A program made the position numbers and the translations under genes. Shown one piece after another: positions 1 through 56,654 of a DNA stretch of 64,000 nucleotides; position 1 is the stretch's first letter, and the number at the start of each line of letters is the position of its first letter. The stretch lies in NCBI RefSeq assembly GCF_003790525.1, contig NZ_CP033635.1. One strand, written 5' to 3'. The DNA comes from Escherichia coli (GTDB lineage Bacteria; Pseudomonadota; Gammaproteobacteria; Enterobacterales; Enterobacteriaceae). The notes beneath the pieces were generated by a model that saw only the letters and a list, made by a program, of their open reading frames with translations, ran no database searches and was not told the origin of the DNA.

Positions 1-187
1 GTACCATATTTGTGGCGAGGACATCATTAAGCCCCAATTCACCGTCCTGTACTTTTTGCACCATAAACGCCATCGCTTCATTGACGGCGAGCTTCGCGCC
101 TTCTCCTCCCTGCGAAACGCTACCTGCGCCATCAGCAAGGAACATCACCAGTAATGGCTGCTGGTCATTTAGCCAGGCAACCTGCAT
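1..187 (-). CDS. yegK: PP2C-like serine/threonine phosphatase, N-terminal part only (gene continues past window start)
   Basis: Minus-strand frame open from ATG (plus 185-187) to the window edge: MQVAWLNDQQPLLVMFLADGAGSVSQGGEGAKLAVNEAMAF...; the DGAGS stretch resembles a PP2C metal-binding motif. Absent from the ORF track because no stop lies inside the window. Sits downstream of yegL as in E. coli. Confidence 0.5.
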   Translation of the reverse strand, partial: MQVAWLNDQQPLLVMFLADGAGSVSQGGEGAKLAVNEAMAFMVQKVQDGELGLNDVLATNMV

Positions 188-264
188 CTGGCAGGCATCC
201 TGACAAGGTAAATCAGCGCTAATGTGCGACGTTCCAACAGCGGATGCATAAACCAGACGCCAGC

Positions 265-924
265 TCACACTGACGTCCAGCCTTTTGGCGCTTCCAGCAC
301 AACTTCCGTTCCCGGCGTGGAGCGGGAAACCGAACGCAGTGAACTGGATAACCAGCTAAACAGTTCGCGGAATTGTAATCCCTGCAGAGACAAAGGCTGA
401 CGGACGCTGATTTGGGCCAGCGTCTTCATATCCGCCCCCTGAACACCGATGGAAAAGAAGGCAAACTTCTTATCTTCTTCCCCCTGAAACACTTTGTTGG
501 CGGCAGCCTGCCACTCATCGGTTGGAGCGCCATCGGTGATCAGGAAAATCCACGGGCGATAATACGAAATACCATTTGCACGATACTCACGTTTCCGCTC
601 CTCTACCATATCCAGGGCTTTGGTAATGGCGGCACCCATTGGTGTATCGCCCTGGGCAAACAGGATGGGCGGGAAAAAATTAGCGGCGCTGGTAAAGGGT
701 TGTTCCACATGCACCGGGCCGAACGTCACAATACCAAGTTCCACTCTTTTTAAGGCCAGCGGGTCGGCAAGCAGCTCATCGCGAAAGGTAACCAATCCGG
801 CGTTAAGTTCATTAATGGGTCTACCGTTCATCGAACCAGAAACATCCAGCAGCAAAATGCAGGGGCAACGTGGTTCCGGGTTACTGGCAAAATCGCTGGT
901 GGCAAACGTGATTTGTTCGCTCAT
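265..924 (-). CDS. yegL: von Willebrand factor A (vWA) domain protein
   Basis: 219-aa ORF; MIDAS-type motif LLLDVSGSM near the N-terminus; position before mdtA matches E. coli yegL. Confidence 0.85.
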
Positions 925-1105
925 AAGAAATCCTTTCTTAGAGAATTATTGAGGTCCGGTATCATACCGATTGCAATAATGAAATAAGAGCAAACGAAGA
1001 AACTTTCAGAATTAGGCCCGGCGGCGCAGAAAATTTTGCTATTCGCCTCGCAAGAACGGAGAGCCGTCGATTGACACTAAGGGCGGAGTGACATAATTTC
1101 AGGAG

Positions 1106-1256
1106 TGAGGGTTAGGGAGAGGTTTCCCCCTCCCCCTGGTGTTCTTAGTAAGCCTGGAAGCTAATCACTAAGAGTATCACCAGTATGATGACGTGCTTCA
1201 TCATAACCCTTTCCTTATTTAAAAGCCCTCTTCTCCGGGAGAGGGTTCCCCGTTTT
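1106..1256 (+). ncRNA. sibA: Sib-type antisense sRNA (antitoxin) fully overlapping the ibs ORF; ends approximate
   Basis: Promoter TTGACA (1071-1076) - 17 bp - TAATTT (1094-1099) on plus strand; GC-rich hairpin plus T-run at about 1225-1256; arrangement antisense to the ibs ORF as known for Sib RNAs. Confidence 0.6.
1145..1204 (-). CDS. ibsA: Ibs-family type I toxin peptide (19 aa, MMKHVIILVILLVISFQAY)
   Basis: Hand translation of the minus strand; matches the Ibs toxin family pattern (MMK + hydrophobic core + FPAY-like end) remembered from E. coli ibsA-E. Confidence 0.75.
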   Translation of the reverse strand: MMKHVIILVILLVISFQAY

Positions 1257-1441
1257 AGCGTCCCGCTGAAATCGTCGGCTTACCTCCTTTCGCCCTGAAT
1301 GCAGTCTATCGCTGACTTGCGGATAAAATAGTTTCAAGTGTGATTATTGCGTAACGACTCGCAAAGAATATTTGCTGGCAGGATCGCAGACTGCAAAGCC
1401 TGCAGATTGACAATCTTATCGTGAAGGCATACTTTCAGGAG

Positions 1442-1584
1442 TGAGGGTAGAGCGGGGTTTCCCCCGCCCTGGTAGTCTTAGTAAGCGGGGAAGCTTATGA
1501 CTAAGAGCACCACGATGATGAGTAGCTTCATCATGACCCTTTCCTTATTTAAGGCCCCTTCCTCGGGAGGGGCTTTCCCGTTTC
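1442..1584 (+). ncRNA. sibB: Sib-type antisense sRNA (antitoxin); ends approximate
   Basis: Promoter TTGACA (1407-1412) - 17 bp - TACTTT (1430-1435); hairpin plus T-run at about 1554-1584. Confidence 0.6.
1478..1534 (-). CDS. ibsB: Ibs-family type I toxin peptide (18 aa, MMKLLIIVVLLVISFPAY)
   Basis: Hand translation of the minus strand; sequence as remembered for E. coli IbsB. Confidence 0.8.
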   Translation of the reverse strand: MMKLLIIVVLLVISFPAY

Positions 1585-1769
1585 AGCGTCCCGCTGAAAT
1601 CTTCGGCTTACCTCCTTTCGCCCTGTATGCAGTCTATCGCTGACTTGCGGATAAAATAGTTTCAAGTGTGATTATTGCGTAACGCCTCGCAAAGAATATT
1701 TGCTGGCAGGATCGCAGACTGCAAAGCCTGCGGATTGACAATCTGACCGTGAAGGCATACTTTCAGGAG

Positions 1770-1903
1770 TGAGGGTTGAGCGGGGTTTCCCCCGCCCTGG
1801 TAGTCTTAGTAAGCCGGGAAGCTTATGACTAAGAGCACCACGATGATGATCCACTTCATCATGACCCTTTCCTTATTTATGGCCCCTTCCTCGGGAGGGG
1901 CTT
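1770..1903 (+). ncRNA. Sib-type antisense sRNA (antitoxin), third copy; ends approximate
   Basis: Promoter TTGACA (1735-1740) - 17 bp - TACTTT (1758-1763); hairpin plus T-run at about 1873-1903. Confidence 0.55.
1806..1862 (-). CDS. Ibs-family type I toxin peptide, third copy (18 aa, MMKWIIIVVLLVISFPAY)
   Basis: Hand translation of the minus strand inside the third repeat unit; same family signature. Confidence 0.75.
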   Translation of the reverse strand: MMKWIIIVVLLVISFPAY

Positions 1904-2069
1904 TCCCGTTTCAGCGTCCCGCTGAAATCGTCGGCTTACCTCCTTTCGCCATGCAAGCAGTCTATCGCTAACGCGTAGATAAAATAGTTTCCTGTGTTAT
2001 TACTGGATGCGTGCTCGCAAATGTGCCCGCCATTCAGACGATTCCCGATAGTGTTTCATAATTCCTCCA

Positions 2070-2087
2070 TTTTTCTCCCTTATTGGC
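2070..2087 (+). promoter_or_regulatory. BaeR box upstream of mdtA
   Basis: TTTTTCTCCCTTATTGGC matches the published BaeR consensus TTTTTCTCCATDATTGGC at 17 of 18 positions, about 55 bp upstream of the mdtA start. Confidence 0.6.
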
Positions 2088-2140
2088 TGGCTACACTAGT
2101 ATCATTCCGCGAAACGTTTCAGGAAGAGAAACTCTTAACG

Positions 2141-3388
2141 ATGAAAGGCAGTTATAAATCCCGTTGGGTAATCGTAATCGTGGTGGTTATCGCCGCCATC
2201 GCCGCATTCTGGTTCTGGCAAGGCCGCAATGACTCCCAGAGTGCAGCCCCAGGGGCGACGAAACAAGCGCAGCAATCGCCAGCGGGTGGTCGCCGTGGTA
2301 TGCGTTCCGGCCCATTAGCCCCGGTTCAGGCGGCGACCGCCGTAGAACAGGCAGTTCCGCGTTACCTCACCGGGCTTGGCACCATTACCGCTGCTAACAC
2401 CGTTACGGTGCGCAGCCGCGTAGATGGTCAGTTGATGGCGTTACATTTCCAGGAAGGCCAGCAGGTCAAAGCAGGCGATTTACTGGCAGAAATTGACCCC
2501 AGCCAGTTCAAAGTTGCATTAGCACAAGCCCAGGGCCAACTGGCAAAAGATAAAGCCACGCTTGCCAACGCCCGCCGTGACCTGGCGCGTTATCAACAAC
2601 TGGTAAAAACCAATCTCGTATCTCGTCAGGAACTGGATGCCCAACAAGCGCTGGTCAGTGAAACCGAAGGCACCATTAAGGCTGATGAAGCAAGCGTCGC
2701 CAGCGCACAGCTGCAACTCGACTGGAGCCGCATCACCGCACCAGTCGATGGTCGCGTTGGTCTCAAGCAGGTTGATGTTGGTAACCAAATCTCCAGTGGT
2801 GATACCACCGGAATTGTGGTGATCACCCAGACGCATCCTATCGATTTGCTCTTTACCCTGCCGGAAAGCGATATCGCTACCGTTGTGCAGGCGCAAAAAG
2901 CCGGAAAACCGCTGGTGGTAGAAGCCTGGGATCGCACCAACTCGAAGAAATTAAGTGAAGGCACGCTGTTAAGTCTCGATAACCAAATCGATGCCACTAC
3001 CGGTACGATTAAAGTGAAAGCACGCTTTAATAATCAGGATGATGCGCTGTTTCCCAATCAGTTTGTTAACGCGCGCATGTTAGTCGACACCGAACAAAAC
3101 GCCGTAGTGATCCCAACAGCCGCCCTGCAAATGGGCAATGAAGGCCATTTTGTCTGGGTACTGAATAGCGAAAACAAGGTCAGCAAACATCTGGTGACGC
3201 CGGGCATTCAGGACAGTCAGAAAGTGGTGATCCGCGCAGGTATTTCTGCGGGCGATCGCGTGGTGACAGACGGCATTGATCGCCTGACCGAAGGGGCGAA
3301 AGTGGAAGTGGTGGAAGCCCAGAGCGCCACCACTCCGGAAGAGAAAGCCACCAGCCGCGAATACGCGAAAAAAGGAGCACGCTCCTGA
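2141..3388 (+). CDS. mdtA: RND efflux membrane fusion protein MdtA (415 aa)
   Basis: ORF 1994-3388 trimmed to ATG at 2141 ([14 protein letters not shown]...); periplasmic adaptor-like sequence; stop overlaps the mdtB start (TGATG). Confidence 0.9.
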
Positions 3389-13792: not shown

Positions 13793-15154
13793 ATGTTTAA
13801 ACCGGAACTCCTTTCCCCGGCGGGAACGCTGAAAAATATGCGTTACGCTTTCGCTTATGGCGCAGATGCTGTTTATGCGGGCCAGCCGCGTTACTCCCTG
13901 CGTGTGCGCAACAACGAATTCAACCACGAAAATCTTCAGCTCGGCATCAATGAAGCCCACGCGCTGGGGAAAAAGTTTTATGTCGTGGTCAACATTGCAC
14001 CGCACAACGCCAAGCTGAAAACCTTTATCCGTGACCTGAAACCGGTGGTGGAAATGGGGCCGGATGCGCTGATTATGTCCGATCCAGGGCTGATTATGCT
14101 GGTGCGTGAGCACTTCCCTGAAATGCCGATCCACCTCTCGGTGCAGGCTAACGCCGTAAACTGGGCGACGGTGAAATTCTGGCAGCAAATGGGCCTGACC
14201 CGCGTGATCCTCTCTCGCGAGCTGTCGCTGGAAGAGATTGAAGAGATCCGCAATCAGGTGCCGGATATGGAGATCGAGATCTTCGTTCACGGCGCACTGT
14301 GCATGGCCTACTCCGGTCGCTGCCTGCTCTCTGGCTATATCAACAAGCGCGATCCGAACCAGGGTACCTGCACCAACGCCTGCCGCTGGGAGTACAACGT
14401 CCAGGAAGGGAAAGAAGATGACGTTGGCAACATCGTACACAAGTACGAGCCGATTCCGGTGCAAAATGTTGAGCCGACGCTGGGTATCGGCGCGCCAACC
14501 GACAAAGTGTTTATGATCGAAGAAGCCCAGCGTCCGGGCGAGTATATGACCGCGTTTGAAGATGAGCACGGCACTTACATCATGAACTCGAAAGATCTGC
14601 GCGCCATCGCCCATGTAGAACGCCTGACCAAAATGGGCGTGCATTCGCTGAAAATCGAAGGCCGTACTAAATCTTTCTACTATTGCGCACGCACCGCACA
14701 GGTTTACCGTAAAGCTATCGATGACGCCGCTGCGGGCAAACCGTTCGATACCAGCCTGCTGGAAACTCTGGAAGGTCTGGCGCATCGTGGCTATACCGAA
14801 GGTTTCCTGCGTCGTCATACTCACGACGATTATCAGAACTACGAATACGGTTATTCAGTTTCTGACCGCCAGCAGTTTGTTGGTGAGTTTACCGGTGAGC
14901 GCAAGGGGGACCTCGCGGCGGTAGCGGTGAAAAATAAATTCTCCGTTGGCGACAGCCTTGAGCTGATGACGCCGCAAGGCAACATTAACTTTACCCTTGA
15001 GCACATGGAAAACGCCAAAGGTGAAGCGATGCCGGTCGCACCAGGCGATGGTTATACTGTGTGGCTCCCGGTCCCGCAGGATCTTGAGCTCAATTACGCT
15101 CTGCTGATGCGTAATTTCTCCGGGGAAACCACGCGTAACCCACACGGTAAGTGA
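13793..15154 (+). CDS. yegQ: Peptidase U32 family protein YegQ/TrhP (453 aa)
   Basis: 453-aa ORF, U32-type sequence with Cys-rich C-terminal half; position after yegP. Confidence 0.9.
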   Translation: MFKPELLSPAGTLKNMRYAFAYGADAVYAGQPRYSLRVRNNEFNHENLQLGINEAHALGKKFYVVVNIAPHNAKLKTFIRDLKPVVEMGPDALIMSDPGLIMLVREHFPEMPIHLSVQANAVNWATVKFWQQMGLTRVILSRELSLEEIEEIRNQVPDMEIEIFVHGALCMAYSGRCLLSGYINKRDPNQGTCTNACRWEYNVQEGKEDDVGNIVHKYEPIPVQNVEPTLGIGAPTDKVFMIEEAQRPGEYMTAFEDEHGTYIMNSKDLRAIAHVERLTKMGVHSLKIEGRTKSFYYCARTAQVYRKAIDDAAAGKPFDTSLLETLEGLAHRGYTEGFLRRHTHDDYQNYEYGYSVSDRQQFVGEFTGERKGDLAAVAVKNKFSVGDSLELMTPQGNINFTLEHMENAKGEAMPVAPGDGYTVWLPVPQDLELNYALLMRNFSGETTRNPHGK

Positions 15155-15238
15155 TTAATTTCGATTATTTTTCCCGGATGGAAAATTCTTAGAAACCGAT
15201 CACATACAGCTGCATTTATTAAGGTTATCATCCGTTTC

Positions 15239-15325
15239 GCTGAAAAACATAACCCATAAAATGCTAGCTGTACCAGGAACCACCTCCTTAGCCTGTGTAA
15301 TCTCCCTTACACGGGCTTATTTTTT
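15239..15325 (+). ncRNA. cyaR: CyaR (RyeE) Hfq-dependent sRNA
   Basis: GCTGAAAAACATAACCCATAAAATGCTAGCTGTACCAGGAACCACCTCCTTAGCCTGTGTAATCTCCCTTACACGGGCTTATTTTTT matches the CyaR sequence as remembered; ends in a hairpin (GTGTAATCTCCCTTACAC) plus T-run; a -10-like TATCAT lies about 8 bp upstream. Confidence 0.8.
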
Positions 15326-36039: not shown

Positions 36040-36145
36040 GCAATGACCTGGTGGTCCGTGACTTCCCTACGCTGGCATTATCCAGATCAGGTGATACGGG
36101 TATTTCTCAGCCTTCACGCAGAAGGGCACCCCGAGTCGTTTGGTT
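36040..36145 (-). ncRNA. TPP (thi-box) riboswitch in the thiMD leader; ends approximate
   Basis: Minus strand reads GGGGTGCCCTTCTGCGTGAAGGCTGAGAAATACCCGTATCACCTGATCTGGATAATGCCAGCGTAGGGAA, containing the conserved CTGAGA and ACCTGATCTGGATAATGCCAGCG elements of the thiM riboswitch. Confidence 0.85.
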
Positions 36146-56348: not shown

Positions 56349-56516
56349 TATACTCTAAATAATTCAAATTGGTCCGATCCGGCGCAACGTCCCAATGGCC
56401 TGGATTATAAATCTCATTATCTTAATTGCAACGGGGTCCAGCCGTGGTTATAATTCGTTCGTTGGAACACGATGTTGCACAGGCTGTGGTGTTAGGCCTG
56501 AAAATAGTAAATAAAA

Positions 56517-56546
56517 GAACCTGCCTCACCAGCAGGTTTTTTTATT
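56517..56546 (+). terminator. Intrinsic terminator downstream of yehK
   Basis: CCTGC-CTCACCA-GCAGG followed by TTTTTTT. Confidence 0.75.
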
Positions 56547-56654
56547 TACTGTGATCTGCTTTCCAGATATTTTTCGCTCAAACAACTAATGCGCCAAACA
56601 TTTATTGCGCGTAAAATATCGTTTATTTCATTAATACATTTCAGGGATGAATAT

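What the first reader, a model, noticed from the sequence alone, without database searches (positions are those of the whole stretch)
1071..1960. Three tandem Sib/Ibs type I toxin-antitoxin modules where K-12 has two
Three about 320-335 bp units each encode an 18-19 aa hydrophobic peptide on the minus strand (MMKHVIILVILLVISFQAY, MMKLLIIVVLLVISFPAY, MMKWIIIVVLLVISFPAY) and, antisense to it, a promoter (TTGACA-17-TAATTT/TACTTT) with terminator hairpin consistent with a Sib antitoxin sRNA. The third copy carries a distinct toxin variant (KWII), suggesting duplication plus divergence by unequal crossing-over. The automated ORF track misses all three because they are under 60 aa.
Basis: partly seen in the sequence, partly recalled or inferred. 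Interest (0 to 1): 0.55.

Follow-up and report, generated by a model that had tools for sequence, protein, structure and literature searches.

The report
Three-copy Sib/Ibs toxin-antitoxin array
This is an ordinary, already-annotated E. coli locus: three tandem copies of the well-studied Ibs toxin / Sib antisense-RNA module between yegL and mdtA, and three copies turns out to be the most common state in E. coli, with K-12's two copies being another common variant.

Summary
Window 1071-2002 holds three tandem units (336, 328 and 328 bp) between yegL and mdtA. Each unit gives a full-length Rfam SIB_RNA match on the + strand (137.6-149.5 bits) and encodes an 18-19-aa Ibs peptide antisense to it. 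Units 1 and 2 encode exactly K-12 IbsA and IbsB. The unit-3 peptide (MMKWIIIVVLLVISFPAY) is RefSeq WP_012767741.1 and a full-length Pfam Ibs_toxin match.

It is not new. A 100% identical locus is annotated in strain 99-3165. O157:H7 has a three-unit array with the same KWII peptide in its second unit. Fozo et al. 2010 already counted seven ibs genes in O157:H7 Sakai.

In 5,416 complete E. coli genomes, units of this type number 1-8 per genome (median 3, mean 2.65). About 2,000 genomes carry the KWII unit. The window locus equals a four-unit array (strain GF4) minus one unit through a single in-register crossover, with zero differences. Unequal crossing-over therefore does explain copy-number change, but the third unit is an old, widespread type and not a recent duplication.

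Units 2 and 3 differ mainly in the known Sib recognition elements. They keep long uninterrupted shared stretches, so cross-repression is plausible but untested. Interest is low.

The parts
1071..1099 (+). Sib promoter of unit 1: -35 TTGACA (1071-1076), 17-nt spacer, -10 TAATTT (1094-1099). An overlapping extended -10-like TGaCATAAT lies at 1089-1097.
   Evidence: Sequence. The K-12 annotated SibA +1 lies 36 nt after the start of TTGACA. The 35-bp minimal promoter of the paralogue sibD is sufficient for transcription (PMC12956327).
1107..1251 (+). SibA antitoxin sRNA, about 145 nt. Ends transferred from the K-12 annotation.
   Evidence: Rfam SIB_RNA 149.5 bits. 142/145 identical to K-12 SibA. 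Fold -57.6 kcal/mol, z = -4.8, with a closing P1 stem, three internal hairpins and a terminator hairpin.
1145..1204 (-). ibsA CDS, 19 aa, MMKHVIILVILLVISFQAY. SD AAGGAAAGGG lies 3 nt upstream.
   Evidence: Translation. Identical to K-12 IbsA, WP_010723109.1, as annotated in an identical locus.
1407..1435 (+). Sib promoter of unit 2: TTGACA-17 nt-TACTTT.
   Evidence: Sequence. Identical to the K-12 sibB upstream region.
1443..1578 (+). SibB antitoxin sRNA, 136 nt.
   Evidence: Rfam 142 bits. 136/137 identical to K-12 SibB. Fold z = -4.4.
1478..1534 (-). ibsB CDS, 18 aa, MMKLLIIVVLLVISFPAY.
   Evidence: Translation. Identical to K-12 IbsB, WP_001386899.1.
1735..1763 (+). Sib promoter of unit 3: TTGACA-17 nt-TACTTT.
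   Evidence: Sequence. Same architecture and the same distance to the G of GAGGG as in units 1 and 2.
1771..1906 (+). Third Sib antitoxin sRNA (unnamed, SibB-like), predicted 136 nt.
   Evidence: Rfam 137.6 bits. 130/137 identical to unit 2. Fold z = -4.2 with the same architecture. Expression is not tested.
1806..1862 (-). Third ibs CDS, 18 aa, MMKWIIIVVLLVISFPAY (the 'KWII' variant).
   Evidence: Translation. Pfam PF13956 Ibs_toxin, E 4.8e-10, model 1-19/19. RefSeq WP_012767741.1, 'type I toxin-antitoxin system Ibs family toxin'.
1907..2015 (.). Terminal, mdtA-side spacer of the array. It has the same sequence type as the last-unit tail in K-12, O157:H7 and GF4.
   Evidence: Unit alignment. 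In-silico crossover.

Best explanation
The region is a tandem array of three Ibs/Sib type I toxin-antitoxin modules in the yegL-mdtA intergenic region of an E. coli chromosome.

In each unit the minus strand encodes an 18-19-aa hydrophobic Ibs membrane toxin. The plus strand encodes a Sib sRNA of about 136-145 nt that is constitutively made from a sigma-70 promoter and is perfectly complementary to the whole ibs ORF and its ribosome-binding site.

By analogy with SibC/ibsC, Sib first contacts its mRNA through two recognition domains. TRD1 is a loop opposite the 3' half of the ORF. TRD2 is a single-stranded stretch opposite the SD and start region. Pairing then spreads, translation is blocked and the duplex is cut by RNase III, so no toxin is made. 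If Sib is lost, Ibs inserts in the inner membrane and lowers membrane potential and ATP.

Shown here: the sequence features, family membership, positions and population distribution. Inferred from K-12 and Salmonella work: expression, repression and toxicity of the third unit.

Copy number at this site changes by in-register homologous (unequal) crossover between units. Because toxin and antitoxin are read from the same DNA, every recombinant unit remains a self-matched pair.
For: - Rfam SIB_RNA, three full-length hits at 137.6-149.5 bits.
- Pfam Ibs_toxin on the third peptide, E 4.8e-10.
- Units 1 and 2 are the same as K-12 SibA/IbsA and SibB/IbsB.
- A 100% identical locus in NZ_CP029981.1 is annotated with three Ibs toxins.
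- The predicted Sib RNAs fold far better than shuffles, z = -4.2 to -4.8.
- All three peptides keep Lys3 and Leu11. A basic residue 3 and Leu11 are conserved among the Ibs toxins compared in bioRxiv 10.1101/2025.05.26.656083; the residues shown there to be needed for toxicity are Salmonella IbsA His3 and Leu11.
- Mechanism: TRD1, TRD2 and cognate discrimination (PMC2943612); translation block and RNase III (PMC4147584); Sib spans the entire ORF (PMC8594479).
- Recombination: the window locus equals the GF4 four-unit locus with one unit3/unit4 crossover, edit distance 0 of 1078. Arrays of 1, 2, 3 and 4 units exist.
Against: There is no expression or toxicity data for this strain or for the third unit.

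The ibs promoters of this array type were not located: there is no sigma-70 consensus hit on the minus strand, and the ibs mRNA ends are poorly defined even in K-12.

NCBIfam returned no Ibs model hit for the peptides; this is uninformative because they are so short.

The Sib -10 hexamers are weak matches (3 of 6).
Confidence: 0.93

Rival explanations
1. The third unit is a decaying, non-functional duplicate (a pseudo-module) that persists only as repeat DNA.
For: No direct expression data. Unit 3 has the lowest of the three Rfam scores, 137.6 bits.
Against: Promoter, +1 G, all helices, terminator, SD, start, stop, Lys3 and Leu11 are all intact. The exact 89-mer spanning most of its ORF, start codon, SD and TRD2 (window 1807-1895) is conserved in 1,017 complete genomes. 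Five of the six substitutions that separate the IbsB-like unit types (window units 2 and 3, GF4 unit 4) in the TRD1-covered codons are synonymous by my reading of the alignment, as expected for a peptide under purifying selection.
Confidence: 0.05
2. The three-copy array is an assembly artefact, a mis-resolved tandem repeat.
For: Tandem repeats of about 330 bp can be mis-assembled from short reads.
Against: The three units are distinguishable at 7 or more positions each. An identical locus exists in a closed genome. About 43% of a 60-genome sample of complete assemblies has three units.
Confidence: 0.01
3. The units encode a plus-strand protein of about 48 aa (ORFs 1497-1643 and 1825-1971), not an sRNA.
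For: Two parallel 48-aa ORFs appear in units 2 and 3.
Against: Unit 1 has only a shorter 37-aa ORF with a different start. The ORFs run through the Sib terminator. All differences between the two copies are non-synonymous (MMSSFIM vs MMIHFIM, K vs M). The strand is a strong match to a structured-RNA model.
Confidence: 0.01

Closest known systems
SibA/IbsA and SibB/IbsB of E. coli K-12 (yegL-mdtA intergenic region; QUAD/SIB repeats)
   Same: Same locus, same orientation, identical IbsA and IbsB peptides. Sib bodies are 97.9% and 99.3% identical.
   Different: The window has one more unit. K-12's second unit carries the TRD2 and tail of the terminal unit type (TTTATGG), consistent with a crossover between the P6 loop and TRD2. 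The best in-silico crossover still leaves 18 differences of 749, mostly in K-12's unit-1 spacer.
The three-unit and four-unit yegL-mdtA arrays of other E. coli strains (O157:H7: IbsA-KWII-KILI; strain GF4: IbsA-IbsB-KWII-KILI)
   Same: The same unit types are present. The KWII peptide WP_012767741.1 is shared. The window locus is the GF4 locus minus one unit, exactly.
   Different: The window lacks the KILI (…SYPAY) unit. The second unit of O157:H7 is a mosaic: IbsB-type promoter and 5' end, KWII-type TRD1 and P6 loop, IbsB-type TRD2.
SibD/IbsD-SibE/IbsE tandem pair (yqiK-hldE) and SibC/IbsC of K-12
   Same: Same family, same antisense layout, same TRD1/P6/TRD2 architecture. SibC landmarks G49CU51 and C107-C113 align as expected.
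   Different: Only 56-77% identical in the Sib body. They lack the 22-nt segment with AAGGAGGT on the ibs strand just beyond the Sib terminator. They start with +1A, whereas the units here start with +1G.
Other tandemly repeated chromosomal type I TA loci (Ldr/Rdl, Zor/Orz)
   Same: Small hydrophobic toxin repressed by an sRNA, tandem duplication within one intergenic region, and strain-variable copy number (PMC2887945).
   Different: Unrelated sequences. Their antitoxins pair with the 5' UTR and do not span the whole ORF (PMC8594479).

Membership tests
Sib antitoxin RNA (Rfam RF00113 SIB_RNA) | Covariance-model score at or above the curated gathering score (56 bits) over the full model | tested here: met
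   149.5, 142 and 137.6 bits, model 1-147/147 for all three units.
Sib antitoxin RNA (Rfam RF00113 SIB_RNA) | Encoded antisense to, and spanning, the whole ibs ORF plus its ribosome-binding site | tested here: met
   Predicted Sib RNAs at 1107-1251, 1443-1578 and 1771-1906 contain the ibs CDSs at 1145-1204, 1478-1534 and 1806-1862 and the SD complements.
Sib antitoxin RNA (Rfam RF00113 SIB_RNA) | Own promoter and intrinsic terminator giving an RNA of about 140 nt | tested here: inconclusive
   TTGACA-17-TAATTT/TACTTT and terminator hairpins are present and homologous to the annotated K-12 sibA and sibB ends. The generic scan does not call the promoters. Transcripts were not measured.
Sib antitoxin RNA (Rfam RF00113 SIB_RNA) | Represses its cognate ibs mRNA through TRD1 and TRD2 | not testable with these tools
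   TRD1, the P6 loop and TRD2 are identifiable by alignment to SibC. Repression needs a co-transformation assay as in PMC2943612.
Ibs toxin (Pfam PF13956 Ibs_toxin; RefSeq 'Ibs family toxin') | Profile match over the full 19-residue model | tested here: met
   Unit-3 peptide: E 4.8e-10, 39.6 bits, model 1-19/19. Units 1 and 2 are identical to K-12 IbsA and IbsB. NCBIfam gave no Ibs hit, which is uninformative for peptides this short.
Ibs toxin (Pfam PF13956 Ibs_toxin; RefSeq 'Ibs family toxin') | 18-19-aa hydrophobic single-helix peptide with a basic residue at position 3 and Leu at position 11 | tested here: met
   MMK… in all three, with L11 in all three. The criterion comes from bioRxiv 10.1101/2025.05.26.656083.
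Ibs toxin (Pfam PF13956 Ibs_toxin; RefSeq 'Ibs family toxin') | Growth arrest, membrane depolarisation or ATP loss on overexpression | not testable with these tools
   Known for K-12 Ibs toxins and Salmonella IbsA. Not known for the KWII variant.

The most novel reading that the evidence does not exclude
Units 2 and 3 may not be orthogonal. Their Sib RNAs differ at only 7 of 137 aligned positions, and 6 of those lie in TRD1, the P6 loop or TRD2. They also share uninterrupted 37-nt and 27-nt stretches over TRD1 and TRD2. That is longer than the 22-25-bp helices that sufficed for repression in Han et al. 2010. Each Sib may therefore also silence its neighbour's toxin.

Such mutual back-up, together with the fact that any in-register crossover yields a self-matched module, would explain why this array gains and loses units so freely (1-8 per genome). 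Variation would then be expected to concentrate in the recognition elements and at peptide residues 4-5.
Probability: 0.35. Interest if true: 0.3.

Novelty: already known. Interest (0 to 1): 0.1.

Why it matters
It matters little as a discovery. The family, its mechanism and its strain-variable copy number are established, and RefSeq already annotates all three toxins in an identical locus.

The useful by-products are descriptive:
- K-12's two-unit array is not the species norm. Three is the median, and the range is 1-8.
- Array variants are related by clean in-register crossovers.
- The unit types differ mostly at the experimentally defined Sib specificity elements, which offers a natural series for testing how much divergence is needed for antitoxin discrimination.

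Tried and rejected
- The generic sigma-70/terminator scan called neither the Sib promoters (the -10 hexamers match only 3 of 6) nor any ibs promoter. The Sib promoters were instead placed by homology to the K-12 annotated +1. The ibs promoter remains unlocated.
- The NCBIfam scan of the peptides, extended to 21 aa, gave only noise hits. Pfam, with a 30-aa in-frame extension, worked.
- Fozo et al. 2008 (PMC2597788), the founding Sib/Ibs paper, is not held in the library, so its statements on strain variation could not be quoted. Fozo 2010, Han 2010 and later papers were used instead.
- Two in-silico crossover scripts failed for K-12 because of SNPs in the anchor sequences. This was fixed.
- A single-step derivation of the O157:H7 array from the GF4 array was rejected. 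At least 24 differences remain, so that array is a mosaic.
- Folding the putative ibs 5' region to explain the conserved hairpin and the SD-like AAGGAGGT gave no structure better than shuffles (z = -0.8, -1.3, +0.3).
- The plus-strand 48-aa ORFs and the minus-strand 38-40-aa ORFs in the units were considered and rejected as coding, because they are not conserved between units.
- An exact 20-mer scan of one genome per species found the array type in only two other Escherichia lineages. More diverged relatives would have been missed.

Full report
**1. What is in the sequence**

The finding lies in the intergenic region between yegL (265-924, minus strand, vWA-domain protein) and mdtA (from 2141, plus strand). 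Tandem Repeats Finder reports one array at 1092-2002 with period 328, 2.8 copies and 90% matches. Measured from one TTGACA to the next, the units are 336, 328 and 328 bp.

Rfam finds three full-length matches to RF00113 (SIB_RNA) on the plus strand: 1071-1219, 1407-1549 and 1735-1877. They score 149.5, 142 and 137.6 bits against a gathering score of 56.

Antisense to each match is a short ORF with a strong SD (AAGGAAAGGG):
- 1204..1145, MMKHVIILVILLVISFQAY
- 1534..1478, MMKLLIIVVLLVISFPAY
- 1862..1806, MMKWIIIVVLLVISFPAY

The promoter strings it quoted (TTGACA-17-TAATTT or TACTTT) are also present. A generic consensus scan does not call them, because the -10 hexamers match only 3 of 6. However, the K-12 reference genome annotates sibA (144 nt) and sibB (136 nt) as starting at the G of GAGGG, which is 36 nt after the start of TTGACA. 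That places the three predicted Sib RNAs at 1107-1251, 1443-1578 and 1771-1906.

Folded alone, these RNAs adopt the same architecture: a closing stem, three internal hairpins, a single-stranded stretch and a G+C-rich terminator hairpin. Their energies lie 4.2-4.8 standard deviations below shuffled controls.

**2. What it is**

Units 1 and 2 are K-12 SibA/IbsA and SibB/IbsB. The peptides are identical and the Sib bodies are 142/145 and 136/137 identical.

The third peptide is a full-length match to Pfam PF13956 Ibs_toxin (E 4.8e-10, model 1-19/19). A locus 100% identical to window 900-2150 exists in E. coli 99-3165 (NZ_CP029981.1). There RefSeq annotates ibsA plus two 'type I toxin-antitoxin system Ibs family toxin' CDSs, WP_001386899.1 and WP_012767741.1. 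The NCBIfam HMM library gave no Ibs hit for such short peptides, so that test is uninformative.

**3. How it works (literature plus inference)**

- Sib RNAs are constitutively expressed antisense RNAs of about 140 nt that span the whole ibs ORF and its translation-initiation region (PMC2943612; PMC8594479).
- SibC recognises ibsC through two independent domains. TRD1 (+46 to +68, the P5 loop) lies opposite the ORF. TRD2 (+99 to +115, single-stranded J1/7) lies opposite the initiation region, with help from the P6 loop. Swapping these elements switches specificity to ibsD.
- Pairing blocks translation, and the duplex is processed by RNase III (PMC4147584).
- Ibs overproduction damages the envelope. 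Salmonella IbsA lowers membrane potential and ATP by binding the Fo a and b subunits. In that work His3 and Leu11 of Salmonella IbsA are required for toxicity, and a basic residue 3 and Leu11 are conserved across the Ibs toxins compared there (bioRxiv 10.1101/2025.05.26.656083).
- All three window peptides keep Lys3 and Leu11.

For the third unit, expression, repression and toxicity are inferred and have not been shown.

**4. Is three copies unusual? No.**

A 73-nt segment specific to this array type was used as the census probe. It contains a 22-nt stretch that sibC, sibD and sibE lack. It occurs at 14,355 places in 5,416 of 5,426 complete E. coli genomes: mean 2.65, median 3, range 1-8. An evenly spaced 60-genome sample gave this distribution:

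| Copies per genome | Genomes (of 60) |
|---|---|
| 1 | 2 |
| 2 | 23 |
| 3 | 26 |
| 4 | 9 |

Representative annotated loci show these arrays:

| Strain | Array |
|---|---|
| 042 | IbsA only |
| K-12 | IbsA-IbsB |
| O157:H7 | IbsA-KWII-KILI |
| GF4 | IbsA-IbsB-KWII-KILI |

The exact 89-mer around the KWII codons is found in 1,017 genomes, and 1,032 more are within 1-4 mismatches. These include O111, O157:H7 and ST131. K-12's IbsB unit differs from it at 5 positions. Genome-wide, Sib-like sequences number 2-10 per genome, with a median of 5. Fozo et al. 2010 already reported seven ibs genes in O157:H7 Sakai, against five in K-12 (PMC2887945).

**5. How the array variants are related**

An alignment of all 13 units from five strains shows four unit types plus mosaics. 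From the first TTGACA to the mdtA start, the window locus (1078 nt) is exactly the GF4 four-unit locus with one in-register unit3/unit4 crossover. The crossover lies anywhere between 120 and 210 nt after TTGACA, and the edit distance is 0.

K-12 is best derived from a window-like array by a unit2/unit3 crossover 120-140 nt after TTGACA, that is, between the P6 loop and TRD2. This accounts for K-12 SibB carrying the terminal-type TRD2. Eighteen differences of 749 remain, mostly in K-12's unit-1 spacer, which is of another type. The O157:H7 array cannot be derived from GF4 in one step, since at least 24 differences remain. Its second unit is a mosaic.

Unequal crossover (and probably gene conversion) is therefore well supported as the mechanism of copy-number change. 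The direction is not settled, because the four-unit array could also arise by an equal crossover within the KWII unit between IbsA-IbsB-KWII and IbsA-KWII-KILI arrays. What is clear is that the KWII-specific bases are absent from K-12. The three-unit array therefore cannot come from simply duplicating K-12's units.

Two other Escherichia lineages (E. coli E69 and Escherichia sp. E1V33) have two-unit arrays. In E1V33 the array is flanked by a yegL-length ORF and an mdtA-like start; the flanks of the E69 array were not checked. These arrays carry further peptide variants (…ISWPAY, …ISYPAY, …ISLPAY; KIL, KLL or KLV at residues 3-5). The array and its diversity therefore predate E. coli proper.

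**6. Where the units differ**

The SibC numbering was placed on the alignment and validated with two landmarks from Han et al., G49CU51 and C107UCCUUC113.

| Unit | TRD1 triplet (aligned with SibC G49-U51) | P6 loop |
|---|---|---|
| Window unit 1 | CUG | CGUG |
| Window unit 2 | GGG | GUAG |
| Window unit 3 | CGG | UCCA |
| GF4 unit 4 | UGG | GUAU |

Units 2 and 3 are 130/137 identical in the Sib body. Their seven differences are +7, one base in the TRD1 triplet, four in the P6 loop (which recode residues 4-5 from LL to WI) and one in the single-stranded part of TRD2.

Across the three IbsB-like unit types (window units 2 and 3 and GF4 unit 4), 10 of 11 variable columns in the Sib body fall in TRD1, P6 or TRD2. 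By my own reading of the codons in the alignment, five of the six TRD1-region substitutions are synonymous. This fits either diversification of the RNA recognition surface or simple drift at sites free of both peptide and helix constraint. I cannot separate the two.

Units 2 and 3 share uninterrupted runs of 37 nt and 27 nt overlapping TRD1 and TRD2. The discriminating K-12 pairs share 8-14 nt, apart from a 36-nt run at TRD2 for SibD/SibE. In Han et al., engineered contiguous helices of 22 and 25 bp sufficed for repression. Cross-repression between units 2 and 3 is therefore plausible but untested.

**7. Verdict**

The feature is already known and annotated, and three copies is the commonest state of this locus. 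The evolutionary remark is half right: unequal crossover does occur, but the third unit is not a recent duplication.

The interest score is low. The only mildly open points are whether neighbouring near-identical modules cross-protect, and what the conserved hairpin and SD-like segment just beyond the Sib terminator do.

Noticed in passing
window 56468-56543 (+), in the yehK-yehL spacer 56349-56588: There is a full-length Rfam OrzO-P antitoxin match (99.9 bits; gathering score 60), but no ZorO-like toxin ORF nearby, and the spacer is only 240 bp. The same spacer is 100% identical in an O16:H48 (K-12-serotype) genome and at least 99% identical in 1,661 records. Fozo et al. 2010 describe zor-orz as absent from MG1655. 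This looks like an orphan orz-like remnant.
   Followed up: partly
window 1579-1622, 1907-1950 and 1252-1294 (all units of this array type): Just 3' of each Sib terminator lies a conserved hairpin (TTTCAGCG-tccc-CGCTGAAA) and a 22-nt segment absent from sibC, sibD and sibE. On the ibs strand this segment reads AAGGAGGT, a perfect SD with no start codon after it. It is invariant or nearly so in 13 of 13 units from five strains. Folding gives nothing better than shuffles. It may be part of the ibs 5' UTR.
   Followed up: partly
L009 (E. coli E69) and L010 (Escherichia sp. E1V33): Both have two-unit SIB arrays with further Ibs variants: MMKILIIVVLLVISWPAY, MMKLLIIVVLLVISYPAY and MMKLVIIVVLLVISLPAY. 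In L010 the array sits between a yegL-length ORF and an mdtA-like start; the flanks in L009 were not checked. Variation recurs at residues 4-5 and at the aromatic residue of the S-F/Y/W/L-P-A-Y tail.
   Followed up: partly
E. coli genomes census: At least one complete E. coli genome has 8 places matching the array-specific 73-mer, and a few matches lie on plasmids (7 places). The extreme arrays and the plasmid copies were not inspected.
   Followed up: no
window 15237-15322 (+) and 36047-36143 (-): CyaR sRNA (100.7 bits) and a TPP riboswitch (71.2 bits). Both are ordinary, expected E. coli features.
   Followed up: no
window 1215-1337 (-) and 1549-1665 (-): Parallel 40-aa and 38-aa TTG-start ORFs run through the ibs upstream region of units 1 and 2. 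They are absent from unit 3 and from several units in other strains (no TTG start), and the differences between them are non-synonymous, so they are probably not coding.
   Followed up: partly
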